Virus record (IMG/VR): IMGVR_UViG_3300025033_000042
Span: 1-36,296 of that record
DNA length: 36,296 nucleotides
From: a virus
Taxonomy: Duplodnaviria > Caudoviricetes
Reading direction: 5' to 3' (one strand)
Made by a program: the position numbers and the translations under genes
Notes under the pieces: model-generated
What the model saw: only the letters and a program-made list of their open reading frames with translations
Told to the model about the DNA's origin: nothing
Databases searched by the model: none
In this document: piece by piece, positions 11,917 through 27,650 of the stretch
How the letters are laid out: each line of letters begins with the position of its first letter
Numbering within the stretch: the stretch's first letter is position 1

Positions 11917-11943
11917 CTGACTGCTCCTTGTGCCTATGCAAAG

Positions 11944-11972: not shown

Positions 11973-11996
11973 GCTCTATTTGCTGACAATATAGAA

Positions 11997-12652: not shown

Positions 12653-12846
12653 TAGCTTATCAGCACCGGAGACGTTTCGAGGATAATGGCACGCCCCCGA
12701 GGGTCCTCCATCATTTTGACCTGAGCTACACGCTTCAGCGGGCCGTCGCTGCCCTCACGGACATAGATGTAGGTGTGAGGGGTTGCGCCGTGGGACACGA
12801 CGCATTCCTTGATGTAGTCGACCAGTTGGCCCGCTTTGTCAATCAT
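12652..12846 (-). CDS. Hypothetical protein
   Basis: Stop/start overlaps on both sides. Confidence 0.65.
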   Translation of the reverse strand: MIDKAGQLVDYIKECVVSHGATPHTYIYVREGSDGPLKRVAQVKMMEDPRGRAIILETSPVLIS

Positions 12847-13316: not shown

Positions 13317-13449
13317 TTGGTTTCACCTTTATCTTTCCTGTGCCCTTACAGTTGCCACATTTGCGTTTAGCCATATGACCTTTTTCACCAGTGCGAGTTC
13401 GACCCCAATACCAACCTTTGCCTGAGCACGAGATACATTTCTTTAGCAT
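13306..13449 (-). CDS. 47-aa zinc-finger microprotein with two CxxCxGxG motifs
   Basis: Hand-translated MLKKCISCSGKGWYWGRTRTGEKGHMAKRKCGNCKGTGKIKVKPNGS; bridges flanking genes. Confidence 0.7.
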   Translation of the reverse strand: MLKKCISCSGKGWYWGRTRTGEKGHMAKRKCGNCKGTGKIKVKPNGS

Positions 13450-13670
13450 TTAGGCTTTTTCCAAAATTCACTGTTCCATGCGCGTCGGATAACATAACTG
13501 CGTAGGATTGAAATAACTGTCATCCACCAGACAATAATAGCGTTATCTTCCCACGTCAACGGAATGTCGTTTAGCCAAACAATAATCATCTGCGCTGTAA
13601 ACGCAATAACGAGACCGACACCGGTGTTAACCACAGCCTCCACAAAGCTCGCTGCTTTAGATTGAGTCAT
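13443..13670 (-). CDS. Small two-TM phage membrane protein
   Basis: ATG 13670 with ATGA overlap; MTQSKAASFVEAVVN..SILRSYVIRR pattern seen in many phages. Confidence 0.75.
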   Translation of the reverse strand: MTQSKAASFVEAVVNTGVGLVIAFTAQMIIVWLNDIPLTWEDNAIIVWWMTVISILRSYVIRRAWNSEFWKKPKC

Positions 13671-14074
13671 ATTTGCATAGTGCTCTGGCCGGTTGCCTCC
13701 TGCTCCATAGCAGCGCGGGTCATGATTAGCACGCCGCGCAGCTCGATCAGGTTGTTGATGTCGTTTCCACGGCACCAGTCAATAAGGCGCCACGCTACGA
13801 CGTTCACGGACTGGTCAACGCCCTTGAGCAGCGGCGTGAAGAAGTCGTCCTTCGGGATGTCAAGCAGACACCTGAACCCCTTCTTGGCAAGCATGATCTC
13901 ACGGTCGAGATACCAGATGGACTTCCCTACCTCGATCAGTGGATCGTCCTTCTTGCCCAGGCGCCAGTTATACTTGAGCACCTGATAGCTGTTGGCGGTA
14001 AGACGCTCACCGATCTGGGCGCAAGCGGTCCCATCGTAGTGAGCAGGGTTGATAGGGTCGTTTACAGCGCCCAT
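13667..14074 (-). CDS. DUF3310 family protein (related to T7 gp1.7 nucleotide kinase)
   Basis: DPINPAHY..KYNWRLGKK..KSIWYLDREI. Confidence 0.75.
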   Translation of the reverse strand: MGAVNDPINPAHYDGTACAQIGERLTANSYQVLKYNWRLGKKDDPLIEVGKSIWYLDREIMLAKKGFRCLLDIPKDDFFTPLLKGVDQSVNVVAWRLIDWCRGNDINNLIELRGVLIMTRAAMEQEATGQSTMQI

Positions 14075-14265
14075 ACAAGCACTCCTATGAATATGAGAAG
14101 GAATACGATCACGACAACAAGCCCGACGCCAGGATCGCCGTCAATTCCTGTCCGATTACAGCTTGTGCATTCATGCTCGTAGGTTTGGCCCCGCATGGTG
14201 TAGCGGATGCGAGTCGTCCCCTTGCAGTAGCGGCATGGAATTGACATTCGAAAACGAGGGTGCAT
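14062..14265 (-). CDS. Small zinc-finger protein with C-terminal TM
   Basis: CRYCKGT..CTSCNRTG then hydrophobic tail; GGAG RBS. Confidence 0.65.
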   Translation of the reverse strand: MHPRFRMSIPCRYCKGTTRIRYTMRGQTYEHECTSCNRTGIDGDPGVGLVVVIVFLLIFIGVLVWAL

Positions 14266-14278
14266 TGGACGTCTCCGG

Positions 14279-14557
14279 TTATGCGAGCCTTTCGAGGCTG
14301 GCGATCAGTAAAGCTAGCGCGAGTTCACGCAGTTGTCCAGCGCGAGGGTCCTTGAGCCCCTCAAGAAGCTGTGCTTCGGAGAGCATCTTGTTGCGCACCC
14401 GATCGGCTTTAGTCATGCAGTCGTCCCTTCCCCCATAGCCCATCGCATAATCGCGCAAGGGCGGTTTCCTCGAATAGCTGACGAACGAGCCAGCGGGCAC
14501 CTTGCTAGGCGCCCGCGGCTTCTTCGGCTTGCGAGCTTGCTTCGGCTTTCTAGCCAT
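14279..14557 (-). CDS. Basic hypothetical protein
   Basis: K/R-rich N-terminus; overlaps upstream gene. Confidence 0.6.
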   Translation of the reverse strand: MARKPKQARKPKKPRAPSKVPAGSFVSYSRKPPLRDYAMGYGGRDDCMTKADRVRNKMLSEAQLLEGLKDPRAGQLRELALALLIASLERLA

Positions 14558-15038
14558 TGGCAATCAGCCAGAGTAGTGTGGTCAGCGCCGATCCCACCAT
14601 CGCGGAGAGGAGCGAAGTATGAATCATCGCTTGGCGGTAGATACGCCACGACCAATAGATCTGATAGTGCAGGTCGCTGCCGGCGCCGAGGAAGCGCTGC
14701 CACTTGCTCCAGCCAGGATTGCCCGGACCGATCGCATCGGGCTTGTCTTCGAGGTTATCGAAGTGCCATTGCAGGAAGAGCTGATACTTGTGCTTCTCGC
14801 GCTCAAGGACCCAAGGCGCACCGTCGAGCCCGTTCAGCTGGAAGAACACACGGCAAGCGGCGCTAAGGTCTGCGACCTCTTCCCCTGCACGGCGGAGCAG
14901 GTTCGTTCCGTCCCAATGCTCGGGCTCACCGCCAGTCCCCATTATCTTTCCGCCGACCTGCACGACCTCGCCTGCTTCTTCGACCAGCTTGCTGAGGCCG
15001 GGCCAGACTCTACTGCCTAGATTGTATGGTGCGCTCAT
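14550..15038 (-). CDS. MazG-like nucleotide pyrophosphohydrolase with hydrophobic C-terminus
   Basis: KLVEEAGEVVQ..EEVADL (EXXE..EXXD). Confidence 0.7.
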   Translation of the reverse strand: MSAPYNLGSRVWPGLSKLVEEAGEVVQVGGKIMGTGGEPEHWDGTNLLRRAGEEVADLSAACRVFFQLNGLDGAPWVLEREKHKYQLFLQWHFDNLEDKPDAIGPGNPGWSKWQRFLGAGSDLHYQIYWSWRIYRQAMIHTSLLSAMVGSALTTLLWLIANG

Positions 15039-15505
15039 ATTCCGTCTCCATGAAGTATTTCGAGTGGCTCAAGGGCCCATTGCAGAAGCCCCTGCTTGAC
15101 TACAGCAGACGCGTCACCTTTGCGGTGCATCTGCGTTCGCGCATAGCGACCCCACCGCTGGCGATAGTGATTGTGTCGGTGAATCTGGTGCGCGTCCCTG
15201 CTATGGCGGCGCCCGCTGCTGAATCGGCAATACCAGTGGAACCAACCAAGAGGGTCTTCGGGGAAGATCCATCCGTTGCGCATCCAATCCTCGTAGGACT
15301 CACCTGCACGAGCCAGATAGAAGTTCTTGTTCTTGTCGAACGGCTCGGTATTGAGTAGCGCAAGCTTCACAATGCTCGGACGCATGTGCATATAGTCTTT
15401 GTCCGACGCATTGTGAAAGTAGTTCCGGCCGAACACTCCCCGCTCGAGCATTTCCTCGGGCGTGAGCATCGGCGCGAAGCCAGGAGCTGTGGTCAGCAAC
15501 GTCAT
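15035..15505 (-). CDS. Conserved protein of unknown function
   Basis: LTPEEML..GVFG, GWI..DPLGWFHWYCRF..GRR, QGLLQWA. Confidence 0.8.
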   Translation of the reverse strand: MTLLTTAPGFAPMLTPEEMLERGVFGRNYFHNASDKDYMHMRPSIVKLALLNTEPFDKNKNFYLARAGESYEDWMRNGWIFPEDPLGWFHWYCRFSSGRRHSRDAHQIHRHNHYRQRWGRYARTQMHRKGDASAVVKQGLLQWALEPLEILHGDGI

Positions 15506-15816
15506 TCTCGGCGCAACACAGGGCCCATGTCGAACCCGTCCTTGGCGCCGAGTTCCTCGGTCAGTTCAGGGCTGAATACACCCAAGTTGATAACAGGATG
15601 AGAAGTGCCCATAATCCCAAGGCGCAGAGCGCCACCTCGTCGAAGCGCATCAATGTCCGCTTCAGTAGGCTTATAGAACGAATACTGAAAGTTCTGACCG
15701 CTTTGAAGGTCAACGTGGTCGACGACATACAGCACTCCGCATTCACCATCGAGTTCATTATCCCATCCCTTCGGAGCACCGAGCGGGCGGGAGCCGGGGA
15801 CGACTAAGGTCTTCAT
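15502..15816 (-). CDS. Hypothetical protein
   Basis: ATGA-coupled on both sides; GGAGG RBS. Confidence 0.75.
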   Translation of the reverse strand: MKTLVVPGSRPLGAPKGWDNELDGECGVLYVVDHVDLQSGQNFQYSFYKPTEADIDALRRGGALRLGIMGTSHPVINLGVFSPELTEELGAKDGFDMGPVLRRE

Positions 15817-16037
15817 CCGAGAACCTCCAGCGCGTCCCCGTCGATACGTTCAAGGGCGAAGCTGCGAGCAGCACCGCGCGAGGGGTCGTGGGCGCGGAGG
15901 AGCCACTGTGGCTCAGGATACCATTCGTTTGCTCCGTAGTCGAGCCCGCGGAAGATAACCTCTCGGGTTTCGCTTTCACCCTTGTGGTTGACGTAGTCGA
16001 AACGAATCTTCGTTCCGGGCAGGATTACTTTGAACAT
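15813..16037 (-). CDS. Stand-alone WYL-domain-like protein
   Basis: IRFDYVNHKGE..REV..QWLLRAHD..RGAARSFALERI matches the WYL pattern. Confidence 0.7.
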   Translation of the reverse strand: MFKVILPGTKIRFDYVNHKGESETREVIFRGLDYGANEWYPEPQWLLRAHDPSRGAARSFALERIDGDALEVLG

Positions 16038-16240
16038 TTCTTTCTCCGGATAGCGCGCTTGACAGATATGTTGTCAACGCCTTTGCTTGTGACGCGGATA
16101 CGCCCGCTCTGCCCCTGGCGGGAGAAGGCGACCCATTGAGCACCGTTGGCGAAATCGCGCTTAGCGACGAAGCCTGCAGCTAGGAGCGAATCGAGCGCTT
16201 GCTGAACGGGGACCCATTCATCTAAAATTATATTTGACAC
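16025..16240 (-). CDS. Hypothetical protein
   Basis: GTG 16240 directly after AAGGAGCAGTCA. Confidence 0.7.
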   Translation of the reverse strand: MSNIILDEWVPVQQALDSLLAAGFVAKRDFANGAQWVAFSRQGQSGRIRVTSKGVDNISVKRAIRRKKCSK

Positions 16241-16263
16241 TGACTGCTCCTTGCCCATGCTAC

Positions 16264-16292
16264 AGCGTAGCGGCCTAATTCTGATGTTGCAA
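16264..16292 (-). promoter_or_regulatory. Sigma70-like promoter
   Basis: TTGCAA-N17-TACGCT. Confidence 0.6.
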
Positions 16293-16505
16293 GCGACCTG
16301 TTCGCGTCCGACTCGTATGCCAATGACCACACTTGCCCTTGTAGGCGTGCATCGGAGTGCCACGATTGGTCGCTTTGCGTGCGGAGCGCATAGCGTCTAG
16401 CTCGTTGGCAAAGATCACCTTGTGGTCAACAGTGCAGCGCAGCCGCAGATCAGGCTTGCCCCACCAGCCTTCGCGGTCGACAGGGATATAGGTCTTAGCT
16501 TTCAC
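16275..16505 (-). CDS. Small hypothetical protein with possible Zn ligands
   Basis: GGAG RBS; C..K..F..A..AY..KCGHWH pattern. Confidence 0.65.
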   Translation of the reverse strand: MKAKTYIPVDREGWWGKPDLRLRCTVDHKVIFANELDAMRSARKATNRGTPMHAYKGKCGHWHTSRTRTGRLQHQN

Positions 16506-16977
16506 TGCGTTTCTCCGCAGCTAGCACACGGCTAAATGATTTGAACTTCGGTTTAACGAGCGTCTCCTTGTTGCCCGAGAAGCCAAGTTGAATCGGGTGC
16601 TGGAGAATACGGTCGAGGGCTTGAACAAGGGACTTCTCGGTGATGTGCTGCGGCACCTTGCACTCAACGACAGCTCGAATCGTTTTGAACTCCTGAACAG
16701 GAGTCTTCGGTAGATCGTGCGACCAGAAGACCTTTGCCGCCATTCGGTCAGCAAGCTTTCGGGCAAAGGTTAAAGCTTCCTGTTTCGTTTCCTCGAGGGG
16801 TTCGATAGTGCAATGCCACGAGTTGAATCCACCTACTTCGTGAACTACACTTGCGTCGCTTGGAGGATCGGATAACGAGTTTAAGACATGGACTCGATAG
16901 TCCTTGTAAGGATGCCTGTTCCGATCCCTGTCGCCCCTCGGACCTGTTTTATCAATCGGTTCGATAACGACAATCAC
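16495..16977 (-). CDS. Hypothetical protein
   Basis: GTGA-coupled to upstream gene; GAGGAGG RBS. Confidence 0.7.
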   Translation of the reverse strand: MIVVIEPIDKTGPRGDRDRNRHPYKDYRVHVLNSLSDPPSDASVVHEVGGFNSWHCTIEPLEETKQEALTFARKLADRMAAKVFWSHDLPKTPVQEFKTIRAVVECKVPQHITEKSLVQALDRILQHPIQLGFSGNKETLVKPKFKSFSRVLAAEKRSES

Positions 16978-17684
16978 TTGAGCCTCCTCTGGCCGGCCGC
17001 AGCACCCGTCTGCAGATTCAGTCCGATACCTTCGGCAATCTTGCGAGCGCCGGAGTTCGTATAATAGGTCCCACCGATGGGAGCGGAGTCGGGGTGACGT
17101 TCCTGATAGACCGCTGCGACACGGTCGAGCGTGATCAGCGCGTTCTTGCCAGATGCCGTAGTGGGCTCGGGCTTGTGCTCTGACGCTGCCAGTGCGTTCA
17201 ACCTACTGCGAAGCGCATTGCCGATTCGGCGCGTGCATTGGTCCGCGTTCATGTGCCCGATCACGTCGCCCCACCTGTCAACGAGCATAAAGCCGGGCGT
17301 TCCGACCGCTTCGCGACCAAGCCGACGCACAGTCTTGACAAGGTAGGCGTGCATCTCCTTGGCGGTGATGCGTGCGGACTCCCGCCCGACAAGGTCCATG
17401 GACCACTTCTTACCGTCCGAGGTATAGCAGCGGCACGCCTTACATCCGAAGTATTTGGCAACAGCGAAGACGAGCATTGTGTCCCAGTCCGGAGAGGCCT
17501 TCGTGCTGCCCTTCTCGTAGTAGCGCTCACCGTCGACAGGGTCGTCCCGTTCGAGGTCTTCGACGTTCAGCTGGTGCTTTTCGAGGAGTTCGTGCGCTTT
17601 GGCGAAGAATACCTCGGCTTCGTGCTGGCTGTCGGTTGATGCGGCCTTTGCCAGTAGGGCTTTGATCTTTTCAATGATGGTCAT
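16974..17684 (-). CDS. DUF2786-domain protein
   Basis: IIEKIKALLAKAAST..HEAE..FAKAHELLEKH. Confidence 0.85.
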   Translation of the reverse strand: MTIIEKIKALLAKAASTDSQHEAEVFFAKAHELLEKHQLNVEDLERDDPVDGERYYEKGSTKASPDWDTMLVFAVAKYFGCKACRCYTSDGKKWSMDLVGRESARITAKEMHAYLVKTVRRLGREAVGTPGFMLVDRWGDVIGHMNADQCTRRIGNALRSRLNALAASEHKPEPTTASGKNALITLDRVAAVYQERHPDSAPIGGTYYTNSGARKIAEGIGLNLQTGAAAGQRRLK

Positions 17685-17710
17685 GTGACTGCTCCTTAAC
17701 TTGCAAGCTT

Positions 17711-17749
17711 ACAATAGCAGTTCCACGGACCCATGCAAGTGAAAAGTTC
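17711..17749 (-). promoter_or_regulatory. Promoter with upstream GAACTTTTC element
   Basis: GAACTTTTCAC-TTGCAT-N16-TATTGT; near-identical architecture at 28402-28440 (+). Confidence 0.65.
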
Positions 17750-17752
17750 GTG

Positions 17753-17950
17753 TCAATTTACACGGTTGCCCGGCTGGATCTCGGGCACAAATCGAATTTT
17801 CAGCCCTGATCGGTAGGTTACGTGAATCCCATCCTTGAGCGCCATGATGCCAACGACGGCATCACTCCGATCCTCGCCCCAATGAGCTCGAAATAGCTGT
17901 TGCGTCTGAGGCTCGATCGGTGGCCCAGTGACCTTTTTCGTCGTGTTCAT
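17753..17950 (-). CDS. Hypothetical protein
   Basis: ATGA-coupled; GGAG RBS. Confidence 0.6.
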   Translation of the reverse strand: MNTTKKVTGPPIEPQTQQLFRAHWGEDRSDAVVGIMALKDGIHVTYRSGLKIRFVPEIQPGNRVN

Positions 17951-18180
17951 GGCTTGCAGACTCCCGGATACATGGCTGCGATGTCATCTGCCGCCTTTTG
18001 CAGTGACTTCTTCGAGCTCGTGTAGGTGAGGCCGGTGATATTTCCGGCAGTTCGAGCCATGTTCTTGGCGGTATAGGCGCGATTCGCCTTCATTCCCGTC
18101 TGGACCCATAGCAAAATCGCTCGGCGCAGCACAATCGCCTGATAATCGGGCACTTGGTCGCCTGTGAACACTGTAGCCAT
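17947..18180 (-). CDS. Hypothetical protein
   Basis: ATG 18180 in TAATG overlap; GGAGG RBS. Confidence 0.7.
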   Translation of the reverse strand: MATVFTGDQVPDYQAIVLRRAILLWVQTGMKANRAYTAKNMARTAGNITGLTYTSSKKSLQKAADDIAAMYPGVCKP

Positions 18181-18629
18181 TACTTCCTCCGATGAGGCAA
18201 GAGGGAACCATCGGGGTGATGGTGAGCGCCGGGCAGCGTGCCCTTGACGAAAGTGAAGGCTTCCCACACTTCCTTCGGGACAGCCCACCCCTTAATCGTG
18301 TTGACGCCCCTCTTCCACCAGAACCATCGGCGGTGAGCGCCATCGATCAGGATATGCGTCCCGCCAGGCCACAGGCCCACGATGACAGGTTCCGACGCTT
18401 CGAGCAGGGTCATGCTGTCCATGCGCGGCTGCTCGAGACCGTGCCGCTCAATGAGCTGCTCCTCGGTCTCGTCGCCAGGGAAAGTGAGGTTGATCACCTT
18501 GTCCTTCGCATTGGCGAGCAGCCACTGGCGCAACTGGCCGCTGAAAATTGTGACCTCTTCGTCCCCGTCGTTCGGCGTGAACGTATATGTCTCTTCGCGG
18601 ACCGTCATGGTAATGAGCTCCAGCGCCAT
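18180..18629 (-). CDS. Hypothetical protein with ParB/Srx-like motif
   Basis: EPVIVG..ILIDGAHR. Confidence 0.65.
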   Translation of the reverse strand: MALELITMTVREETYTFTPNDGDEEVTIFSGQLRQWLLANAKDKVINLTFPGDETEEQLIERHGLEQPRMDSMTLLEASEPVIVGLWPGGTHILIDGAHRRWFWWKRGVNTIKGWAVPKEVWEAFTFVKGTLPGAHHHPDGSLLPHRRK

Positions 18630-18832
18630 CAGTAGTTCTCCGACAGGTAGGTGATCGCCGCGTTATGGCCGAGACCATACTGGTCGGGCAACGACGCGAA
18701 CTCGTGCGGCTGGTGAGTGAGCGGGCGACCCGCTTCACGGTCGGTTGCGTTCTGCTCCTGCATCGACGCAAGGTGCGCTTGCATACAGGCAGCTTGAGTA
18801 ATCAGGAACGCGGCTCGTGCGTGCTGGTCCAT
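18629..18832 (-). CDS. Hypothetical protein
   Basis: ATG 18832 in TAATG overlap; GGAGG RBS. Confidence 0.65.
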   Translation of the reverse strand: MDQHARAAFLITQAACMQAHLASMQEQNATDREAGRPLTHQPHEFASLPDQYGLGHNAAITYLSENY

Positions 18833-19077
18833 TAGCTGATCCTCCAGACCATAAGGATCGGACCATCGCGCAGCGTGCGCCAACGGCGTCCGGCCGCATT
18901 GTTCTTGTTCAGGCTGTAGATGCGCGACCGCAAGCGCTTCATCTCCTTGTCCGTGAGCTCATACTCGCCGGCTCGGGCAAGCGGGATACGGTGAATGTCG
19001 GACTCGCTCGGAAGCCCGCGCTGCACCTTCGTATGAGGGAGCTTGCTCACATCGGGCAGACGGACCACGTTACCCAT
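18832..19077 (-). CDS. Basic hypothetical protein
   Basis: GGAG RBS; coupled to neighbours. Confidence 0.7.
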   Translation of the reverse strand: MGNVVRLPDVSKLPHTKVQRGLPSESDIHRIPLARAGEYELTDKEMKRLRSRIYSLNKNNAAGRRWRTLRDGPILMVWRIS

Positions 19078-19330
19078 TGACCATCTCCATCATAATGCCG
19101 TGCGAAATCGGCTGCACCGAGGCAAACCGAGTCCCGAACGACGTGCTCCGGCTGACGGTCATTGCGGCGAGTCCCTTTATGCGTGCGCCGCGCTCCGTCG
19201 GCACCGAGCTGCACCCGTCCTCCTTGTTGTGGTCACCCACGAACTTCCGGGCGCGATCTGCACCCTCCTCGAACGAGCCCACAATGCAGACCTCGTCGTG
19301 GTGTTTGGTCTTCTGTCGGTATAAGAACAT
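19070..19330 (-). CDS. Hypothetical protein
   Basis: ATG 19330 after AAGGAGGCAGTCA. Confidence 0.7.
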   Translation of the reverse strand: MFLYRQKTKHHDEVCIVGSFEEGADRARKFVGDHNKEDGCSSVPTERGARIKGLAAMTVSRSTSFGTRFASVQPISHGIMMEMVNG

Positions 19331-19394
19331 TGACTGCCTCCTTGCAATACCCGAACAACGGGCGTTGCTATTGTATTGCACACGCCCGCCTGAT

Positions 19395-19613
19395 TTACAA
19401 GGGGCCTTTTACAGGTCGCCCGATTTCACGGTTTTCGGGGAGGGAGGCCGGTGATGACCACAGTCCAAGCTCACGACTGCCGTCAGTGTCCGTGCGGACC
19501 CTATGCAGGTTGGCAGCGTGGTGGATTAACTCGAGCGGAGTAATAGGTGCCCACTCCGCGTCTGGCTCATCGTCAACGAAGCTAAGACCCATGTAGCTCC
19601 AGGAAACTTGCAT
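19395..19613 (-). CDS. Hypothetical protein
   Basis: ATG 19613 with AAGGA RBS. Confidence 0.5.
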   Translation of the reverse strand: MQVSWSYMGLSFVDDEPDAEWAPITPLELIHHAANLHRVRTDTDGSRELGLWSSPASLPENREIGRPVKGPL

Positions 19614-19895
19614 ATAGAACGATCCTTTACTTAGATGCACGCTATAGCATAGCAGCGGCACACACTGGAGCACAAGCGGAACTGTTAGATGAAACTACTG
19701 TCTCGGGAGGGCCTACAGTATGAGCAACAGACGTTGTAGAGGAAAAACATACGCCAGCTGGATCACCTCGGGATGCCGGGCTCCGAGGCCCGAGAATTGA
19801 CATCCTAGCCCGAGGGCTCGGTCTTCGTCATGAAGGTGAGTGAGTCGTCCTGATCGCGCCCCAGCGGGCCTTGTATCGGCCTACAGCTAGTCATG

Positions 19896-19920
19896 AAAAG
19901 GGGCGCCCGAAGGCACCCCT
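19896..19920 (-). terminator. Rho-independent terminator
   Basis: AGGGGTGCC-TTCG-GGCGCCCCT-TTT. Confidence 0.75.
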
Positions 19921-19949
19921 CTTGATGGTGTAGGCTGTGGAGGTGGAGC

Positions 19950-20237
19950 TCAGCGACCCCTGTCCTCCACGTGGCGGATCCGCTCCACAGGCTTGCCCGT
20001 CGCCTCAGCAATCTCGAAGCGAGCCGTCAGGTTGAAGGCAGCGTAGAGAGCCTGATACTGGCGGAGCTCGTCCACCATGCGGTGAGCCCGTTCGTAGTCC
20101 TCTGACTCAACAGCGCTGGCGATCCAATTCTTGAGCGCCTGGGAATGGCTGTCAACAACCTTGTGGACATTCCGAGCCTGTTCCTCCGACATGGTGAACT
20201 GGAAGTCAAATCCTGATAGCTTGATGGGGTCGGTCAT
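19950..20237 (-). CDS. Hypothetical protein
   Basis: ATG 20237 with GAGGA RBS. Confidence 0.7.
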   Translation of the reverse strand: MTDPIKLSGFDFQFTMSEEQARNVHKVVDSHSQALKNWIASAVESEDYERAHRMVDELRQYQALYAAFNLTARFEIAEATGKPVERIRHVEDRGR

Positions 20238-20248
20238 GATGTGGTTCC

Positions 20249-20452
20249 TCAATTGTGTTGGCGGATAGCGTCAAAGCGAGCCATCCAGTTGCTGATTCGA
20301 GCATTCGAAATGAGCTGCTGGCGTTCCGCGTTGCGGCGCACCTGCTGGCGCTGATCGGCCCAAGAGGTAAGCGCCGCAGAAACTCGTTGCCGGCGTTCCA
20401 GGGTGATTCGCTCGTCAAGAAGAACGGCAATAGGTTGATTGGTCATGATCAC
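20249..20452 (-). CDS. Hypothetical protein
   Basis: TAAGGAG RBS; start GTG 20452 or ATG 20446. Confidence 0.6.
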   Translation of the reverse strand: MIMTNQPIAVLLDERITLERRQRVSAALTSWADQRQQVRRNAERQQLISNARISNWMARFDAIRQHN

Positions 20453-20462
20453 TACTCCTTAG

Positions 20463-20492
20463 AAAAGTGAGGGGAGCCGGGTGGCTCCCCTC
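20463..20492 (-). terminator. Rho-independent terminator
   Basis: GAGGGGAGCC-ACCC-GGCTCCCCTC-ACTTTT. Confidence 0.75.
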
Positions 20493-20502
20493 GGGTTGGC
20501 GG

Positions 20503-20934
20503 TTACTCCGCTTCGGCAGGCGCAGCGGCCTTCTTCTGGCGTCCGGTGATCCCGTTAAACTTCCGCCACTGATAGAATTCGATGCTGGCGTTGTTCGGGT
20601 TCCATCCATTTTCCTCGGCAAGCATCTTTACGAACTGGGCATCGGGGATCTCACCCTCGTTCTCGCGATACTCGTCCAGGGCGTCCCACACTGCGCGGCA
20701 GCGACCACCCGCGGACGGGCGCTTGATACCATTCTGCTCCGGACGATTCTTCTCGATCTTCAGGCCGACCGCCACCTGAGTGGGCTTCGTGCTGACCGGC
20801 AGCGGCTTGCTGGCGGTGCTACCAGCGGGAGCGGTTGCTTCAGCGAGCATCGTCTCCAGCGTGGCGAGGTTGGCCTTCTTCGGAGCTTCGACATTGAGGT
20901 CCGAAAGGGCGGCACGGATTTCATTCTTGGTCAT
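20503..20934 (-). CDS. Putative DNA-binding early protein, first gene of left arm
   Basis: ATG 20934 with AAGGA RBS; HeH/SAP-like N-terminus and helical C-terminal domain; own promoter and terminator. Confidence 0.75.
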   Translation of the reverse strand: MTKNEIRAALSDLNVEAPKKANLATLETMLAEATAPAGSTASKPLPVSTKPTQVAVGLKIEKNRPEQNGIKRPSAGGRCRAVWDALDEYRENEGEIPDAQFVKMLAEENGWNPNNASIEFYQWRKFNGITGRQKKAAAPAEAE

Positions 20935-20986
20935 GTTGACTTCCTTCTTGCTTGCATCCGGTCTAGCAGGTTGCTGCCGGTTCCCC

Positions 20987-21019
20987 ATTATACTCGCGGA
21001 ACTATTAACAGCACATTAA
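20987..21019 (-). promoter_or_regulatory. Promoter with perfect -10 and a CtrA-type box over the -35 position
   Basis: TTAA-tgtgctg-TTAA-N12-TATAAT. Confidence 0.7.
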
Positions 21020-21132
21020 TAGCAGACCCATTCTTTTGCCAGCCGGCGCCAGCCGACCTATCAGGACGAAAGCGCCAGTTCCGTTACGCGGGTAATATCG
21101 CACCGGCGGGCGCCCGCATAGGTCCGCAGACC

Positions 21133-21148
21133 TTAACATACCATTAAC
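21133..21148 (+). promoter_or_regulatory. CtrA-type box
   Basis: TTAA-catacca-TTAAC. Confidence 0.7.
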
Positions 21149-21428
21149 AGCCCGCACGATTTCCAGACTTATTTTGCCTCAGGGCGAATGGGTCCGTTAA
21201 GTCATTGAATTAAAAGGGAAATCGCAATCAGGAGGGCTTCGCCACTAGGGGTCGGAAAATGCGGATCAGGGCTGTAGCCCGGCTTAAATCGGCCTACAGC
21301 CGGATGTCCCATCTTGGCGACGTATTCTTCTCAGGACAGGTCGGCTCGCTCGAGCTCATGGGCATAGGTCTGTGATCGACAAGCGATTTGTGCGACCGAA
21401 GCGCACTTTAGGCGTAACGGCCGCAATC

Positions 21429-21457
21429 TTGCAACAGGGGCCGGCCGGTGCTATACT
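21429..21457 (+). promoter_or_regulatory. Rightward sigma70-like promoter inside the control region
   Basis: TTGCAA-N17-TATACT. Confidence 0.6.
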
Positions 21458-21543
21458 GTGTTATGGATGCGACACCTACCTCGATGCGCCACAGGGGCGT
21501 CATGACGATACCGGTCGCATCATGGCGACTCGCTCGATTCATG

Positions 21544-21559
21544 GTTAACGCGGCGTTAA
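21544..21559 (-). promoter_or_regulatory. CtrA-type box, with extra half-sites to 21600
   Basis: TTAA-cgccgcg-TTAAC on minus. Confidence 0.65.
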
Positions 21560-21627
21560 TCATATCTGTTAAGGTTAACTCTCTCGAGCAAAAAATTAAC
21601 CCGATTCGGTGAAATCGGTCGAGGCCG

Positions 21628-21670
21628 CCCACCTACTATTTTTTGAATCCCCCACCTACTATTTTTTGAA
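21628..21670. repeat. Perfect 20-nt direct repeat, two copies
   Basis: CCCACCTACTATTTTTTGAA at 21628-21647 and 21651-21670. Confidence 0.95.
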
Positions 21671-21697
21671 CCGACTTGGTGCAGGCGGGACCCATCG

Positions 21698-21730
21698 AAA
21701 AGTGGGCCCGCCGGGGGTATGGCGGGCCCA
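21698..21730 (-). terminator. Terminator closing the candidate ncRNA
   Basis: TGGGCCCGCC-N8-GGCGGGCCCA then CTTTT. Confidence 0.65.
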
Positions 21731-21732
21731 TA

Positions 21733-22112
21733 GGTGCAAGCGGGCAGTCAACCCCTCTTGGCGCCACCGCATTGAGCTTAATGGCGCCTCACGGAGCGAA
21801 GGAGATACCCCGAGCGTCTGCAACTTATTGACGCATCCACCTGTCCATCCGGTGGATAGGCGCCCTGCCGATGGACAGCAGAGACGCCCACTGATGACCA
21901 CATGCCTACCGTGCCAAGCGCCTGTCAGCTGTGGCTTCAGCATTTGCCATTCGACTTACGTCTAGCGGCTGTTCAGTTCATTCTTCGCCACCAATGGATT
22001 ATCTGGTCAGGTCCCGCACTGGCACGGCTGTCTGATCCCACCCGATAGCGTCATACGAACTTGTAACCCCCTGCAGAGGTGTCCCCATCAACTACCGGAT
22101 TAACCAGCTTGC
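21733..22112 (-). ncRNA. Candidate ~380-nt structured non-coding RNA
   Basis: Bounded by promoter and terminator; nested 5'/3' helices with G-U pairs valid only on minus; GNRA loop; no convincing ORF. Confidence 0.65.
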
Positions 22113-22116
22113 CCTT

Positions 22117-22145
22117 ACAATAGGGAGCGCTTTCGGATGTTGCAA
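22117..22145 (-). promoter_or_regulatory. Promoter of the candidate ncRNA
   Basis: TTGCAA-N17-TATTGT; shares TTGCAACATC with the 16292 promoter. Confidence 0.65.
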
Positions 22146-22169
22146 GCACTTTCTTACGATAGAATAAAT

Positions 22170-22580
22170 CGTGCCAATTATCTGCCAATTTTCTCTAGAC
22201 ATATAGAACTCAGATATCATCCGAGGGAGGGGCGAACTGTATTAGGGGAGGGACCCTAACACAATACTGTCCGGGGCCCTGAAAACAGTATTTAGGTCGA
22301 CTTACTACACATCTATACAGTGAAAATAACACCTCCTTTACCCTATAGGGTATAGAAACAAAGAAACATAGATACCATTATAGTGAAAGTGGCACAATTT
22401 TGTGCCATCGGGGGGAGGACCCGAGAGCCACTTGTGCTGGTGCCAAGGGGTTTAGCGTTTTCGTGTTTTGCGTTTCACAGCATTACTGTATAGGGGGCCT
22501 CCCCTTAGCACAGTATTGTTCGCCCTCCCCCTACAGTATTGCCTGTTTCTGCTACATCGGACACTTCTATTGCCAATTTT
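22170..22580. repeat. Inverted-repeat and palindrome cluster around an AT-rich core (origin or packaging-site candidate)
   Basis: Mirror-image arms 22225-22292 and 22482-22540; palindromes TACCCTATAGGGTA (22339-22352) and TGGCACAA-tt-TTGTGCCA (22390-22407). Confidence 0.55.
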
Positions 22581-22629
22581 CAATCACATAGCAGGTTTCA
22601 CTTACCTATACGGGAGGGGCACAAGCCTG

Positions 22630-22658
22630 TTGCGATACGAGCGCCAACCCGCTACACT
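22630..22658 (+). promoter_or_regulatory. First promoter of right arm
   Basis: TTGCGA-N17-TACACT. Confidence 0.65.
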
Positions 22659-22695
22659 GCAACACGACCAGTGTGGTCACGCAGGGAGTCAAGCA

Positions 22696-22917
22696 ATGCT
22701 ATCATCTGATTCAAGGTGTTCAGCTAGAGTTAAGTATAAAAACTCATTTGGTGGGCATAACCAATGTTTGAACAAAGCCCAGCCCGGAAAAGACTTATGT
22801 GCAGTTCACTTGGCACGAAAGATTGCAATGGCTCGAAGGAAGGAGAAAAGTAATGGATTGGCTTGTGGTTGGCCCGATGCTGTTTATTGGAATAGCGGCG
22901 GCTGCGTTGCTCAGTGA
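22696..22917 (+). CDS. Small Cys/His-rich hypothetical protein
   Basis: ATG 22696 with GGGAG RBS just after the promoter. Confidence 0.55.
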   Translation: MLSSDSRCSARVKYKNSFGGHNQCLNKAQPGKDLCAVHLARKIAMARRKEKSNGLACGWPDAVYWNSGGCVAQ

Positions 22918-23128
22918 ACGCATCCTGCACTGGATGTTCTTCAAGAAGCCGGATTCAAACTTGTGGATGGGTCCGGATGGTGTGCTTCTTGATAAAACAG
23001 AACAGTGCTCGGAATGCTGGTGCCCGTGGAAGTGCGTCAATCCGACGCTATGTCCGCGCTCAGATATGTATGCGCCGGCGGGCATAGCTGGTGCGCTCGA
23101 GAGAAGGCACCGCAATGACCACACTTGA
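22853..23128 (+). CDS. Small membrane-anchored Cys-rich protein
   Basis: ATG 22853 with AAGGAG; N-terminal TM; CSECWCPWKC..C. Confidence 0.6.
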   Translation: MDWLVVGPMLFIGIAAAALLSERILHWMFFKKPDSNLWMGPDGVLLDKTEQCSECWCPWKCVNPTLCPRSDMYAPAGIAGALERRHRNDHT

Positions 23129-23333
23129 GCAGATGATCCAGCGGTCCGTGCCTGTCGCGCCAATGGCAAGCCCGAACACTACCTCGCCGGCGTCAACGTA
23201 GCGGAGGCCCACGCTGCGGCTGAGCAGTTGGAGGCCATGCGTGCTACGATGCAGACGTTCGTCGACAGGATGGGGCAAAGGCGAGGTCCGCAGTCGGCGC
23301 ACCTATGCGCAGTTCAAGGAGTTGCTGAAATGA
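23115..23333 (+). pseudogene. Small gene broken by two compensating frameshifts (or sequencing errors)
   Basis: ATG 23115 and TGA 23333 share a frame but TAG 23199 interrupts it; the middle reads as protein in another frame. Confidence 0.5.
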
Positions 23334-23851
23334 GCACGATTCTGGATATATATCTTGAGCAGCGCGGACGGATGGTGCAAGCATATATCATGCCAACCTT
23401 CGTTAGCTTCAACTATGAGGGGTATTCGCAGGCGCTGGAAGCTATGCTCAAGGACGGTGCAGAGCTCAATCAGGAGGTCCGAACCTATTGCGGGTTGCCT
23501 TACTTCCTAAAGCGCGATCAGGAAGAGCTTATCAAGCTGGGCTCGTCGTGCGAAAGCCCTCCACTACCTAAGCTGGTGGAGGTCAACGACAACAGGTGGC
23601 ACCTGCCTAGCGTCAACGAAGGGTTGCGTCTGGCGCGCTTGTGCAATGGCCACGCAACGCCGCACGACATCGCGGAGGGGAAGAAGAACGTTAGCCCGAC
23701 CGACGATGCTTATATGCGCGCTTGCCGTGCCCTCAACTGGCGCAACGCTGAGCTCCGGTTCTATGGGCTCGAGCCTATTGCGCTGCCCGACGATGCTCCA
23801 CACTACCCTCCGGACGACTTTGACTTCGGAGCTGCGCATGACGGACGATAA
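23330..23851 (+). CDS. Hypothetical protein
   Basis: ATG 23330 with AAGGAG RBS. Confidence 0.7.
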   Translation: MSTILDIYLEQRGRMVQAYIMPTFVSFNYEGYSQALEAMLKDGAELNQEVRTYCGLPYFLKRDQEELIKLGSSCESPPLPKLVEVNDNRWHLPSVNEGLRLARLCNGHATPHDIAEGKKNVSPTDDAYMRACRALNWRNAELRFYGLEPIALPDDAPHYPPDDFDFGAAHDGR

Positions 23852-24125
23852 GATACGCCCGCTGCGGCAGGGTATCGTTGGCTCACCTGACAAGCAACAG
23901 TTTCTAGATGCGGTCGCTACTGCATACGACAAGCTGACGGGTGGGCCCGGTCCACCTGTTGCACTGGTCTTTGCCTTCGTCGCTGAGACAGGGGAGGCCA
24001 ATCCTAGCTACATCACACTCTCGAAGGTGGACGACCGAAACCTGCTCTACCTTGCCCGCGCTGTAATGGCGCTCAACTCCGACTATCACGTATGGGACAG
24101 GGATGCCAATGATACAAATAGTTGA
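23838..24125 (+). CDS. Hypothetical protein
   Basis: ATG 23838 with GGAG RBS. Confidence 0.7.
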   Translation: MTDDKIRPLRQGIVGSPDKQQFLDAVATAYDKLTGGPGPPVALVFAFVAETGEANPSYITLSKVDDRNLLYLARAVMALNSDYHVWDRDANDTNS

Positions 24126-24792
24126 GAACCCTCGTCTCGGGAGACTGAAAGACCGTCTGCTTCAACGCGACGTAACGGTTGAGGAGGTGTGGGAATACAT
24201 TACCATTCAGCATCAACCTCACGCTGGGCAGACGCCTCAGAGCCCTGCAAGCTTCGTGACGCAAGAGGACCTTGTCCACTTCTGGTCGCTTCACGACTGG
24301 TGGGAACCTGTCAAAGATAAGCCTACGAACGCACCTACGCCTCTGATTAGTCAGTTCTGCTGGTATGTGAACACACCTTCGAACACTACGCCAGTCACGT
24401 TTATGGACGCTATGATGCAGTTCTATAACCGTGCGCTGGCATGGTGCGAAGCTAACGAGCTTGACCCTATCAATCCCGGTGAAACAGCAGCGCAGCGCAA
24501 GCGCAGATTGAATCGTGAGCGGATGGCTAAAGTGCGCGAGCATCGTGCTACGCCTAAGAAGGCGCTGGAAGGAGATTCTGAACTAGCTGCGCAGGTGAAG
24601 GCGCTGGAGGACCAGTGCTCGGATCTTAAGGTCGAAGCCAAGCTGGCTGAGGAATGGGCTAAGGGTGAAGTGCTTCGGCACCAAGAAGCCATGATAGAGG
24701 CAGCAGCCAAGCGAAAAGAAATCGCAGCTGACTTCAAGACACGCATCGAAAAGTTGCGCACAGAAATTCGCACTTTGATTGCAAAACAGTAG
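24103..24792 (+). CDS. Hypothetical protein with basic patch and C-terminal coiled coil
   Basis: 229-aa ORF; QRKRRLNRERMAKVR. Confidence 0.75.
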   Translation: MPMIQIVENPRLGRLKDRLLQRDVTVEEVWEYITIQHQPHAGQTPQSPASFVTQEDLVHFWSLHDWWEPVKDKPTNAPTPLISQFCWYVNTPSNTTPVTFMDAMMQFYNRALAWCEANELDPINPGETAAQRKRRLNRERMAKVREHRATPKKALEGDSELAAQVKALEDQCSDLKVEAKLAEEWAKGEVLRHQEAMIEAAAKRKEIAADFKTRIEKLRTEIRTLIAKQ

Positions 24793-24821
24793 TTGCGATT
24801 TTTATGCCAGCCGCTTATGCT
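24793..24821 (+). promoter_or_regulatory. Promoter of HTH-primase operon
   Basis: TTGCGA-N17-TATGCT. Confidence 0.6.
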
Positions 24822-24900
24822 GTGCGTGATACGGCCAGCCCCTCTTTCACCGCCGCGATGGTGATACGGGCTGGTCTTCTTGACAAGGGATGGGGCGGTC

Positions 24901-25134
24901 GTGTCGTTGCAGCAAGCTTTTGACGAAACCTACATTAGTTCCACAGAAATATGCCAGCGACTAGACGTTAACCGAAGCACCATCTTTAACGGTGCCCGCG
25001 CCGGCAAGCTTCCTGAAGCTATCGTAATCCGGCGTGCCGACGGTGGCACGCATATCCTCTTATGGCTGCGAGCCGAAGCTGAACCCATGATGGAAGAGTG
25101 GGCCAAAGCTATCGCATCGAGGAAAGGGTTGTGA
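24901..25134 (+). CDS. AlpA/excisionase-like HTH DNA-binding protein
   Basis: YISSTEICQRLDVNRSTIF..AGKLPEAI; start uncertain (24880 or 24901). Confidence 0.75.
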   Translation: MSLQQAFDETYISSTEICQRLDVNRSTIFNGARAGKLPEAIVIRRADGGTHILLWLRAEAEPMMEEWAKAIASRKGL

Positions 25135-27650
25135 TTCGCGCTCAACGATGGGGCAACCTACCCGAGGAAATGAGAGAACGTCCACAGTGGGCCATCGCGG
25201 GTGCTAGCAAAGCGCCTATGACGGTCGGTCCGCAGGGTGGGCTACGTCTTGTCAAGGTAACAGAACCTTCGTCCTGGATGACCTTCGAGGATGCGTGCGC
25301 TGTAGCGTGGTCAAACAGGGAAACAGTGACCACACACGTCACAGCGGAAGGCGTTACGGTTCGGCAGACAGGTTTGGACGTCGGGTATATCCTCAATCAA
25401 GGAGACCCGTTCACCTGCATTGACCTGGACGTCAAGGACGCGGAGACGACTCCCAACAATCCCGAGAAGTGGACCACAGCAGATGACTTCCAAAGGTATG
25501 TATCTATTGTCGAGCGCTTTGACTCCTACACGGAGCGCTCCAAGTCCGGCAAAGGGCTCCACATTTGGGTCCGCGGAAATATCGGTAGAGGTTTCCGCAG
25601 GGACGGCATCGAAATCTACTCGCAAGAGCGCTTCATCATCTCAACGGGCGACGTCTATGTCCCGAAGCCAGTAGCCGACCGGGAATACCTCCTAACGAAT
25701 ATGATCCACCAAATGCGCCCGCTACAGAAGCAGGTGGAGTTGGAGGAGCTACCCGAGGAGGCAGATGACTGGTATATCCTTCAGGTTGCAGTGAGCGCTG
25801 CGAACGGAGAGAAGTTCAGCAAGCTGTGGAAGGGGCTGTGGCGCGAAGAGGAATTCAACTTCCCCTCCCAATCCGAAGCAGACTTGGCGCTCATGTCCAT
25901 GTTCACCTTCTACAGTGAATCGAACGAGCAGTGCCGCAGGTTGTTCCGCGAGTCGGGTCTAGGGAAGCGCGAGAAAGCTACCAAGAACGACGCCTACCTT
26001 AACAATACCCTCAAGACTATTCGCGAAAGGCAGGAGCGCGAGCGCAGCGTTGAGTTGAGCGGTATTCTGCAAGCTGCGGACAATATGCGTCAGCTTGCGC
26101 AGGAAGGCATTCAAGCGCTACAGGGCGGCGTGCCGCCGGCACAGCAGGTGGCAGGGGCTTTCGGTGCTGTTACCCCTCGCACGGTTTCTCCGCTACAGGT
26201 GCTCGGCACAGGCGAGCCTGTGGTGACTGCGCCGCCGCCAGAGGCTGCACTGGCACAAATGGCTCCCGTCACCGACTCAGCACGCCAAGCGGGTTCGGAT
26301 GGGCTACCCTGGCCTCCAGGGTTCGTAGGCGCGCTGTCGCAGTTCATCTATAACAACAGCTTCCTTCCGATCAAGGAGGTCGCAGTCACAGCAGCGCTCG
26401 GCCTGATGGCAGGCATCACAGGCAAAGCATGGCACATTCCGAAGTCAGGTTTGAATCTGTATATCGTTCTTGTGGCTCGCAGCGCTATCGGCAAGGAGGC
26501 GCTGCACACCGGCATCTCAACTGTCGTCAGCTCGTGCATTCGTGAGTTTCCGCAGTTCGGCAACTTCGTGGACTTTACCGAGTATGCGTCCGGTCCTGCA
26601 CTAATCAAGGCGTGCGCGCAGAATACGTCCTTTGTTAATGTGTCCGGTGAGTGGGGGCGCCGTATGAAGCGCATCGCCATGGAGGACGACCGTGAGGGTC
26701 CGATGACCACACTACGGACGCAAATGACGAACCTGTATCAAAAGTCAGCTCCTATGTCCATCGTTGGCGGTATCGGCTACAGTTCCACAGAGAACAACAT
26801 CGAGGCGCTCCAGTCCGTTGCCTACAGCATGGTCGGTGAGAGCACGCCGCAGACATTCTATGACAGCTTAACCGAGTCTATGATGGAAGACGGGTTCCTT
26901 TCGCGCTTCCTTGTCATTCAGTATGACGGGGACCGGCCTGAAGAGAACACGAACATGATTGAGTATCCCGACAGCGCTCTTACGCGCTACCTATGCGGGA
27001 TGGCCTTTCAGGCGGATGCTAACATAGGGAACGGCACCGCTCAGCCAGTTGGACGCACAGAGGAAGCAGCTAAGACGCTATCGGCGTTCAGCTACAAGGC
27101 GGCGGACATGATTCGCGGCACTCAGGATGAGTCTCGACGCCAGATGTGGAACCGTGCGACATTGAAGGTCTTGCGTGTCGCAGCCATCCTAGCGGTGGGC
27201 GATAACTACATGCACCCGATCATTCAACAGCATCACGCAGACTGGGCCATCAAGCTCATTATGGCGGACATTGAGATTATGCGTAAGCGCATCAGCAGCG
27301 GTGACGTTGGGCTTAACGACCAGTCCCGTGAACGCAAGGCGGTTGCAGTCATTCAAGACTACCTCACCAAGCCCATTCCGAAGAGCTACAAGATTCCGGA
27401 TGGTATGCGCGAAGCTGGCATCGTCCCGCGTCCATACCTCCAGCAGCGCACGGCTCGCGCATCAGCGTTCTACAAACATAAGTTCGGCGCCAACAAAGCG
27501 CTGGAAGAGACGCTGATGAACCTTGTCAACTCTGGATACATTATGGAGGTTAAGGGAGACAAGCTGGTCGATATGTTCAGCTATCACGGTAAGGCGTTCC
27601 GCGTGATTAAACTGCCTGACTACGAGGCAATGGCAACGGACCGCGATTAG
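25131..27650 (+). CDS. Primase-polymerase fused to helicase-like (DUF3987-type) domain
   Basis: CIDLD, YTERSKSGKGLHIW (AEP primpol), SQSEADLAL, VARSAIGKE, DGFLSRF; GTGA-coupled start 25131. Confidence 0.85.
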   Translation: MIRAQRWGNLPEEMRERPQWAIAGASKAPMTVGPQGGLRLVKVTEPSSWMTFEDACAVAWSNRETVTTHVTAEGVTVRQTGLDVGYILNQGDPFTCIDLDVKDAETTPNNPEKWTTADDFQRYVSIVERFDSYTERSKSGKGLHIWVRGNIGRGFRRDGIEIYSQERFIISTGDVYVPKPVADREYLLTNMIHQMRPLQKQVELEELPEEADDWYILQVAVSAANGEKFSKLWKGLWREEEFNFPSQSEADLALMSMFTFYSESNEQCRRLFRESGLGKREKATKNDAYLNNTLKTIRERQERERSVELSGILQAADNMRQLAQEGIQALQGGVPPAQQVAGAFGAVTPRTVSPLQVLGTGEPVVTAPPPEAALAQMAPVTDSARQAGSDGLPWPPGFVGALSQFIYNNSFLPIKEVAVTAALGLMAGITGKAWHIPKSGLNLYIVLVARSAIGKEALHTGISTVVSSCIREFPQFGNFVDFTEYASGPALIKACAQNTSFVNVSGEWGRRMKRIAMEDDREGPMTTLRTQMTNLYQKSAPMSIVGGIGYSSTENNIEALQSVAYSMVGESTPQTFYDSLTESMMEDGFLSRFLVIQYDGDRPEENTNMIEYPDSALTRYLCGMAFQADANIGNGTAQPVGRTEEAAKTLSAFSYKAADMIRGTQDESRRQMWNRATLKVLRVAAILAVGDNYMHPIIQQHHADWAIKLIMADIEIMRKRISSGDVGLNDQSRERKAVAVIQDYLTKPIPKSYKIPDGMREAGIVPRPYLQQRTARASAFYKHKFGANKALEETLMNLVNSGYIMEVKGDKLVDMFSYHGKAFRVIKLPDYEAMATDRD

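What the first reader, a model, noticed from the sequence alone, without database searches (positions are those of the whole stretch)
21698..22145. Phage-encoded ~380-nt structured ncRNA with its own promoter and terminator
Seen: a minus-strand promoter (TTGCAA-N17-TATTGT, 22145-22117) points into an ORF-poor stretch ending at a 10-bp hairpin plus CTTTT (21730-21698). The transcript pairs 5' to 3' in nested order (plus coordinates): 22107-22112 with 21736-21741; 22097-22105 with 21746-21754 (three G-U); 22078-22086 with 21801-21809; 22071-22077 with 21817-21823; 22048-22053 with 21829-21834; 22020-22027 with 21909-21916; 22008-22011 with 21921-21924; 21987-21993 with 21963-21969. There is also a GAC-GUAA-GUC tetraloop (21953-21962) and a side hairpin (21760-21766 with 21782-21788). 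The G-U pairs would be A-C mismatches on plus, which favours a minus-strand RNA over DNA palindromes. I do not recognise it as tRNA, tmRNA, RNase P, 6S or an intron. Inference: an undescribed large phage ncRNA.
Basis: partly seen in the sequence, partly recalled or inferred. Interest (0 to 1): 0.9.

Follow-up and report, generated by a model that had tools for sequence, protein, structure and literature searches.

The report
New phage pseudoknot-core large RNA family
This phage carries a gene for a ~400-nucleotide non-coding RNA whose base-paired core is conserved across related phages of several bacterial groups and matches no catalogued RNA family; the RNA likely joins with copies of itself into an RNA-only complex and is predicted to act as a decoy or scaffold during infection.

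Summary
The minus strand 22112-21698 folds better than 100 of 100 shuffles (z -3.43) and matches no Rfam family. The phage is Queuovirinae-like. Homologues occur in metagenomic phages and in cultured phages MMDA13, NP1 and other Nipunaviruses, HD01 and probably Vid5. Their shared core is a 41-nt H-type pseudoknot (22030-21990): 275 of 286 cells pair and 11 of 13 pairs show compensatory change in 22 sequences. The 5' domain is a local hairpin and the 3' half a set of adjacent hairpins, which excludes most of the proposed nested long-range helices. Contigs from 3 of 3 RNA runs fall inside the RNA (21809-22098), a weak hint of expression. Self-complementary hairpin tips that switch sequence (12 of 12 MMDA13-type copies, background 15 of 108) and a compensated loop-loop match (window, L030) suggest kissing-loop multimers like ROOL/GOLLD/OLE. 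Function is inferred, not shown. I found no description in print, but could not read the alignments of one large phage RNA screen.

The parts
22117..22145 (-). sigma70-type promoter-like site TTGCAA-17-TATTGT; predicted start near 22112
   Evidence: sequence; same spacing in 14 of 14 homologues; function not tested
21698..22112 (-). ncRNA: 377-nt body (22112-21736) plus terminator, about 415 nt
   Evidence: z -3.43; homologues 364-437 nt; single copy in the record
21736..22112 (-). P1 closing helix, 22112-22108(07) with 21740(41)-21736
   Evidence: 5' GCAA-like and 3' UUGC ends recur in the homologues; base 22107 is shared with P2
22032..22107 (-). 5' hairpin domain (P2): 22107-102/22037-32 and 22100-091/22049-40
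   Evidence: L030 forms the same local helices with other sequence; a hairpin closes at the same G in the divergent members folded; L068 folded otherwise
22071..22076 (-). self-complementary tip CUGCAG, candidate symmetric kissing loop
   Evidence: 6-nt palindrome at index 28-41 in 15 of 15 full-length copies: CUGCAG 13, UUGCAA 1, GGAUCC 1
21990..22030 (-). conserved H-type pseudoknot core: 22030-28/22010-08, 22027-25/22016-14 (3-nt bulge 22013-11), U22024, 22023-17/21996-90, 11-nt loop 22007-21997
   Evidence: 156 of 156 cells paired in 12 sequences; 275 of 286, 11 of 13 pairs compensatory, in 22 sequences; slid controls 31-44% paired
21946..21969 (-). hairpin with GAC-GUAA-GUC tip
   Evidence: kept in L030 with a GUAG loop; strain variant GUAA to GCAA stays GNRA
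21890..21941 (-). long hairpin with CUUG-type tip; its 3' strand carries the conserved UGUGGUCA (21902-21895)
   Evidence: 21941-37/21894-90 kept in L030 with other sequence; UGUGGUCA invariant in 11 of 11 MMDA13-type copies at another position
21835..21889 (-). two abutting hairpins (21889-58, 21857-35) whose loops are complementary: 21877-70 with 21849-42
   Evidence: L030 keeps both stems and a changed but fully complementary loop pair GUCACU/AGUGAC; only two independent sequences
21760..21788 (-). side hairpin 21788-80/21768-60
21698..21730 (-). intrinsic terminator-like hairpin and U-run
   Evidence: hairpin after P1 in 14 of 14 homologues, T-run of 3 or more in 12 of 14 (read)

Best explanation
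This is a stand-alone phage gene for a ~400-nt RNA built around a conserved pseudoknot core, and the RNA likely assembles with copies of itself through kissing loops into an RNA-only multimer that is predicted to present the core as a decoy or binding scaffold for a host or phage protein during infection. Shown: the gene, its family, the pseudoknot and several peripheral helices (covariation). Hinted: a discrete, accumulating transcript. Inferred: oligomerisation (about 0.6), from palindromic tips that switch sequence and a compensated loop-loop match between abutting hairpins that probably cannot meet within one molecule. Inferred with least support: the in-trans decoy or scaffold role (about 0.4), from an invariant core carried by interchangeable peripheries and placed at three different genome positions. 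Confidence below is for the combined statement; that it is a real structured ncRNA I put at 0.95.
For: Core covariation: 0 of 500 shuffles reach the observed score; slid controls fail. Own promoter-like and terminator-like sites across homologues. No conserved reading frame: single-base indels in close strains (L076, X21, X23); longest sense ORF varies 29-69 aa. RNA contigs of X22, X23, X24 lie within 21809-22098, with upstream ends at 22093-22098, while DNA run X21 goes on. Palindromic tip in 12 of 12 MMDA13-type copies with three central tetramers (CGCG, UCGA, GGCC), against 15 of 108 other 3'-domain loops and 20% at random; palindrome switching is the sign used for intermolecular kissing in OLE and GOLLD (10.1101/2024.12.08.627333, passages). 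Position varies: in the divergent-promoter gap (window, MMDA13), after two small genes (NP1, HD01), downstream of the primase next to tRNA-Ser (Vid5).
Against: No experiment on the RNA. The RNA runs were chosen for holding 21000-22800, depths are 3-6, and contigs give no strand, end or level. The 12 palindromic tips stand for perhaps 3-5 independent changes. That hairpin tip has no clear counterpart in the window's own subtype, whose case rests on CUGCAG and one loop pair seen in two independent sequences. No clear palindromic tips were seen in the Nipunavirus-type folds (by eye). No partner protein was identified. Not detected in MiCath, R7M, Iggy, slur01 or 7 of 12 near-complete IMG/VR relatives, so it is probably dispensable or diverged there. 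2 of 9 strain variants break pairs of my peripheral MFE model.
Confidence: 0.4

Rival explanations
1. The pseudoknot core is a ribozyme (self-cleaving or acting on another RNA) and the peripheral hairpins are scaffold.
For: Compact core with 9 invariant columns in 22 sequences, four of them unpaired in the model (A9, C34, A36, A40), a fixed 3-nt bulge and fixed spacing without indels; Vid5 copy ends beside a tRNA gene.
Against: No Rfam ribozyme or intron match at E up to 10 or up to 5 in six homologous loci; no interrupted host gene; RNA contigs run across the core. Topology differs from HDV-like, twister, glmS and group I cores as I recall them (not tested by a call).
Confidence: 0.15
2. A cis-acting nascent-RNA element (put-like antiterminator or ligand-sensing leader) controlling read-through into the downstream early genes.
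For: It lies 50-120 nt behind a promoter-like site at the head of a gene block; in Nipunavirus-type copies a gene follows the final hairpin directly, and that hairpin repeats a 10-nt piece of P2.
Against: In the window the next same-strand ORF starts about 710 nt later (20988), in MMDA13 about 340 nt later; downstream genes differ between phages; the P2-terminator repeat does not co-vary in L042 or L106 (by eye); no Rfam riboswitch match.
Confidence: 0.15
3. A replication- or packaging-associated RNA (origin primer or ARRPOF-like; phi29 pRNA-like ring).
Against: NP1, HD01 and Vid5 copies are away from that region; the phage encodes its own primase and both terminase subunits.
Confidence: 0.15
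4. A monomeric structured RNA acting in trans; the palindromes are chance or serve intramolecular contacts.
For: Few independent palindrome switches; the window subtype lacks the best one.
Against: Two separate loops are enriched, and a perfect palindrome at a loop centre cannot pair within one chain.
Confidence: 0.13
5. Not an RNA: DNA palindromes, a small ORF, or chance folding.
For: A 94-aa ORF (21943-21659) overlaps the 3' half; L078 folds no better than shuffles.
Against: G-U-containing covariation in a pseudoknot; strand asymmetry in 13 of 13; frame-breaking indels in close strains.
Confidence: 0.02

Closest known systems
ROOL and GOLLD RNAs
   Same: Large phage-encoded RNAs with many hairpins, pseudoknots, a conserved core with variable periphery and no known function; kissing loops build multimers (10.1101/2024.12.08.627333, passages and Discussion). 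Vid5 copy lies beside a tRNA.
   Different: No Rfam match; about 220-470 nt against 550-800+; the window has no tRNA; found in lytic Queuovirinae-like phages of Proteobacteria; multimer not shown.
OLE and ARRPOF RNAs
   Same: Symmetric dimers through kissing loops (PMC12990946 passages); OLE switches palindromic tetranucleotides.
   Different: Cellular or plasmid-borne; no Rfam match; no plasmid hit for this RNA.
phi29 prohead RNA (pRNA)
   Same: Phage RNA whose two loops pair between molecules (recalled; listed as an oligomer in PMC12990946).
   Different: No Rfam match; this phage has small and large terminase; over twice the length (recalled).
Candidate viral structured RNAs of Fremin, Bhatt and Kyrpides 2023 (PMC10690425)
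   Same: Same source collection (IMG/VR intergenic regions), covariation-based.
   Different: Candidates are 29-151 nt (part 1 of the text), so none is the whole RNA; one could be the core. Alignment files were unreadable; readable tables had 0 hits for 6 core motifs and 6 contig ids.

Membership tests
ROOL / GOLLD | match to the Rfam covariance models | tested here: not met
   0 matches at gathering in the window; 2 unrelated chance hits at E 3-3.5 in 21000-23000; none over the RNA in 6 homologous loci
ROOL / GOLLD | length of about 550 to over 800 nt | tested here: not met
   364-437 nt in 14 copies; lengths of the known families
ROOL / GOLLD | often near tRNA islands | tested here: inconclusive
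   no tRNA in the window (record 62% complete) or in MMDA13; Vid5 copy abuts tRNA-Ser
ROOL / GOLLD / OLE (works like) | RNA-only homo-oligomer held by kissing loops | not testable with these tools
   sequence signs only
tmRNA | tRNA-like domain with T-arm and CCA, plus conserved tag frame | tested here: not met
   ARAGORN 0 genes; Rfam none; an Ala-Asn-starting frame at 21945 is not kept in L030 (by eye)
RNase P RNA, 6S, SRP, group I/II introns | match to Rfam models; for introns an interrupted gene | tested here: not met
   intergenic position
small self-cleaving ribozymes (HDV-like, twister, hammerhead, pistol, glmS) | match to Rfam models | tested here: not met
   (a hammerhead hit at E 0.3 in L064 lies 1 kb outside the RNA)
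small self-cleaving ribozymes | self-cleavage | not testable with these tools
   needs an in-vitro assay
riboswitch (for example preQ1) | aptamer directly ahead of a regulated gene, Rfam match | tested here: not met
   no Rfam match; no adjacent gene in the window or MMDA13; a gene does follow in Nipunavirus-type copies
phi29 pRNA | Rfam match; phi29-type packaging motor without small terminase | tested here: not met

The most novel reading that the evidence does not exclude
A new class of RNA-only assembly made by lytic phages: modular peripheral hairpins with exchangeable kissing loops build a ring or cage that displays many copies of an invariant pseudoknot, which is catalytic or neutralises a host defence or RNA-processing protein. 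It would be the first member of the ornate multimeric RNAs in small, culturable, lytic phages, where deletion and rescue can reveal a function.
Probability: 0.3. Interest if true: 0.92.

Novelty: new variant of a known kind. Interest (0 to 1): 0.8.

Why it matters
Large ornate phage RNAs (ROOL, GOLLD) have solved structures but no known function. This family is unrelated to them by Rfam, smaller, and sits unannotated in cultured phages: MMDA13 (NC_072503 about 48225-48607), NP1 and other Nipunaviruses (19 records), HD01 and probably Vid5, where it is annotated as nothing or as hypothetical ORFs. That makes the open question of what such RNAs do testable by deletion in laboratory hosts, and its natural variants (about 220-470 nt around one 41-nt core) already mark which part matters.

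Tried and rejected
No match: blastn of the window RNA against 50,697 phage records and 72,556 plasmids; a window-specific 17-mer in viral contigs; four look-ups of earlier scan findings. Pairing of the RNA's 3' segment with the start region of the 20988 gene (repeat I3): not among the 12 best duplexes and no such site in L030's locus; rejected. Pairing of core loop ACCA with the distal UGUGGUCA: possible in sequence, but UGUGGUCA has a local partner in both subtypes and no covariation was seen; left open. A first descriptor script found nothing through a parsing fault; the repaired one gave 34 hits in 1.02 Mb, 32 of them family copies with many duplicates, against 8 hits in reversed sequence, so it is used only with the covariance model. 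MFE helices 21989-83/21801-795, 21981-79/21807-05 and 21976-73/21813-10 are not kept in L030 and are not claimed. Laying the three RNA runs on 1-17000 gave one 205-nt contig in X22 and none in X23 or X24; absence of cover proves nothing and is not used as support. The small word shares of X22-X24 (0.10) are not used for habitat. Weak model hits L113 and L115 are not counted. Nine paper searches found no description of this RNA; most subscription journals are outside the library.

Full report
Observation. All 9 helices are complementary, one with a mismatch, and the promoter-like and terminator-like sites read as given. The strand 22112-21698 folds at -183.1 kcal/mol, z -3.43, with 0 of 100 shuffles as good. 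Rfam 15 gives nothing at gathering threshold in the whole window and two chance hits on the terminator at E 3-3.5. ARAGORN finds no tRNA or tmRNA. The element is single-copy in this 62%-complete virus record.

Context. The RNA lies in a roughly 1.8-kb gap without credible genes between two divergent gene blocks. The window encodes capsid, portal, both terminase subunits, a primase, Sak4, a Cas4-like nuclease and others. Its primase is 73% identical to that of Sphingomonas phage MMDA13 and about 56% to Nipunavirus phages such as NP1 (Queuovirinae). The host of the window's phage is unknown.

Family. nhmmer over 62 fetched loci found the RNA in L030 (E 2e-11) and weakly in L031-L033. A degenerate core pattern gave 14 metagenome loci and 4 viral loci. 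After dropping duplicates I kept 14 full-length copies of 364-437 nt, including MMDA13 (L063:4226-4608, no annotation there). All 14 have a TTG hexamer 17-18 nt before a TA hexamer and a hairpin behind the 3' end; 12 of 14 have a T-run (read). A covariance model then found the core at the syntenic place in Nipunavirus-like loci, NP1 and Acinetobacter phage HD01; the NP1 region is shared by 19 phage records of Pseudomonas, Xanthomonas and Variovorax. A second model matched 12 of 47 related records at E up to 0.05, 10 of them at E up to 5e-4; five of these were training members or identical to one, while G006, G019, G040, G041 and Pantoea phage Vid5 were not in the model. It was not found in MiCath, R7M, Iggy, slur01 or 7 of 12 near-complete IMG/VR relatives. 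A pattern scan of 185,579 prokaryote genomes gave 1 hit, a 57.5-kb contig that holds the same sequence as an IMG/VR phage contig. At this stringency the family is phage-restricted.

Structure. The core aligns without gaps: GA-CWS-SCS-U-X7-SGS-(3 nt)-SWG-11-nt loop-X7'. Counted as an H-type pseudoknot, 156 of 156 cells pair in 12 sequences and 275 of 286 in 22 distinct sequences, with compensatory change in 11 of 13 pairs, all 7 of the X/X' helix among them; 0 of 500 shuffles reach this, and slid partners pair in only 31-44% of cells. The structure was read from these same sequences and they are related, so the controls flatter it somewhat; the unselected Vid5 and G006 copies keep the X/X' helix. 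Upstream, a local hairpin closes at the invariant G before the core. Downstream, abutting hairpins radiate from one large junction closed by P1; in the 11 MMDA13-type copies 48 of 85 consensus pairs have a double change (on an imperfect alignment). The window and L030 form a second subtype with other spokes; Nipunavirus-type, HD01 and Vid5 copies differ again and run from about 220 to 470 nt (estimated by eye). Of 9 substitutions in a close strain, 4 fall in those helices and 3 break them, 2 break peripheral pairs of my model, and none falls in the core.

Expression. Three metatranscriptome runs of three studies hold about a tenth of the words of 21000-22800. Laid on 17000-27000, their contigs cover 21899-22098 (X22), 21809-22097 (X23) and 21899-22093 (X24); X22 has two further short contigs elsewhere; DNA run X21 covers all 30 bins. 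Three contigs stopping 14-19 nt from the predicted start is a weak hint of a discrete transcript. The runs were picked for holding this stretch, and contigs give no strand or level.

Signs of oligomerisation (inference). In 12 of 12 MMDA13-type copies the hairpin ending in GUGGUC has a centred self-complementary tip, with central tetramers CGCG, UCGA or GGCC; 15 of 108 other 3'-domain loops do, and 20% of random loops. With three to five independent changes that is roughly 1 in 100 to 1 in 3000 by chance. The 5' domain has a 6-nt palindrome at a similar place in 15 of 15 copies (CUGCAG, UUGCAA, GGAUCC). In the window two abutting hairpins have complementary loops (21877-70 with 21849-42, 8 pairs); L030 changes both loops and stays complementary. 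Kretsch et al. use palindrome switching as evidence for cross-chain kissing in OLE and GOLLD (10.1101/2024.12.08.627333; I read passages and the Discussion). The window's subtype lacks the best-supported tip, and I saw none clearly in Nipunavirus-type folds.

Mechanism. I commit to a promoter-driven, self-terminating RNA that accumulates in infected cells, folds an invariant pseudoknot on a variable scaffold, oligomerises by kissing loops and acts in trans as a decoy or scaffold for a protein. Gene, family and core are shown by covariation; accumulation is hinted; oligomerisation and role are inferred. Rivals are a new ribozyme, a cis antiterminator or leader, a replication or packaging RNA, and a monomeric RNA; none is excluded.

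Novelty. No Rfam match for the window or over the RNA in six other loci. [quoted passage not shown] For PMC12990946 and 10.64898/2026.07.01.735769 I read passages only. Nine searches found no description. The core could be among the 8,495 short candidates of PMC10690425, of which I read part 1 of 5 of the text; its alignment supplements could not be read. I put 'undescribed as a family' at about 0.8. Comparisons with ribozyme, pRNA and put topologies are from recall.

Verdict. A real, apparently undescribed family of large structured phage RNAs, of the same broad kind as ROOL and GOLLD but not a member of either. Interest 0.8.

Noticed in passing
window 21628-21670 and 21541-21563, 21429-21457 (+): Right after the RNA's terminator: a perfect 20-nt direct repeat, GTTAAC-type repeats and a plus-strand promoter-like site pointing at the RNA, conserved in L030 and partly in MMDA13-type loci; candidate origin or operator region.
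   Followed up: partly
window 22170-22580: AAAATTGGCA three times and an AAACCCCTTGGCAC motif conserved in L030 upstream of the RNA; likely regulator sites or further promoters.
   Followed up: no
window 20990-21110 region of the gap, L030 3983-4050: A second strongly conserved non-coding block with a hairpin (around 21230-21300) between the RNA and gene 20988; possibly a separate element.
   Followed up: no
window 21910-22085: In DNA run X21, 9 of 10 substitutions and 2 of the indels of a 2.4-kb contig fall inside the RNA, none in its core: the periphery varies faster than the flanks.
   Followed up: partly
L082, L041, L044, L042, L106 (3' part of Nipunavirus-type RNA): A hairpin with an invariant UGUGGG loop followed by CCCACA suggests a second pseudoknot; the final hairpin keeps a CUGGUG loop and repeats a 10-nt piece of P2.
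   Followed up: partly
L087:12112-12668 (Vid5): Two annotated hypothetical genes on the opposite strand overlap the probable RNA, which runs up to tRNA-Ser; the ORFs may be false calls.
   Followed up: partly
L088:4268-4733 (slur01): A 465-nt gene-free gap at the place where NP1 and HD01 carry the RNA, but without the core.
   Followed up: partly
L102: A Queuovirinae-like phage contig is binned in a Halothiobacillaceae MAG in GTDB.
   Followed up: yes
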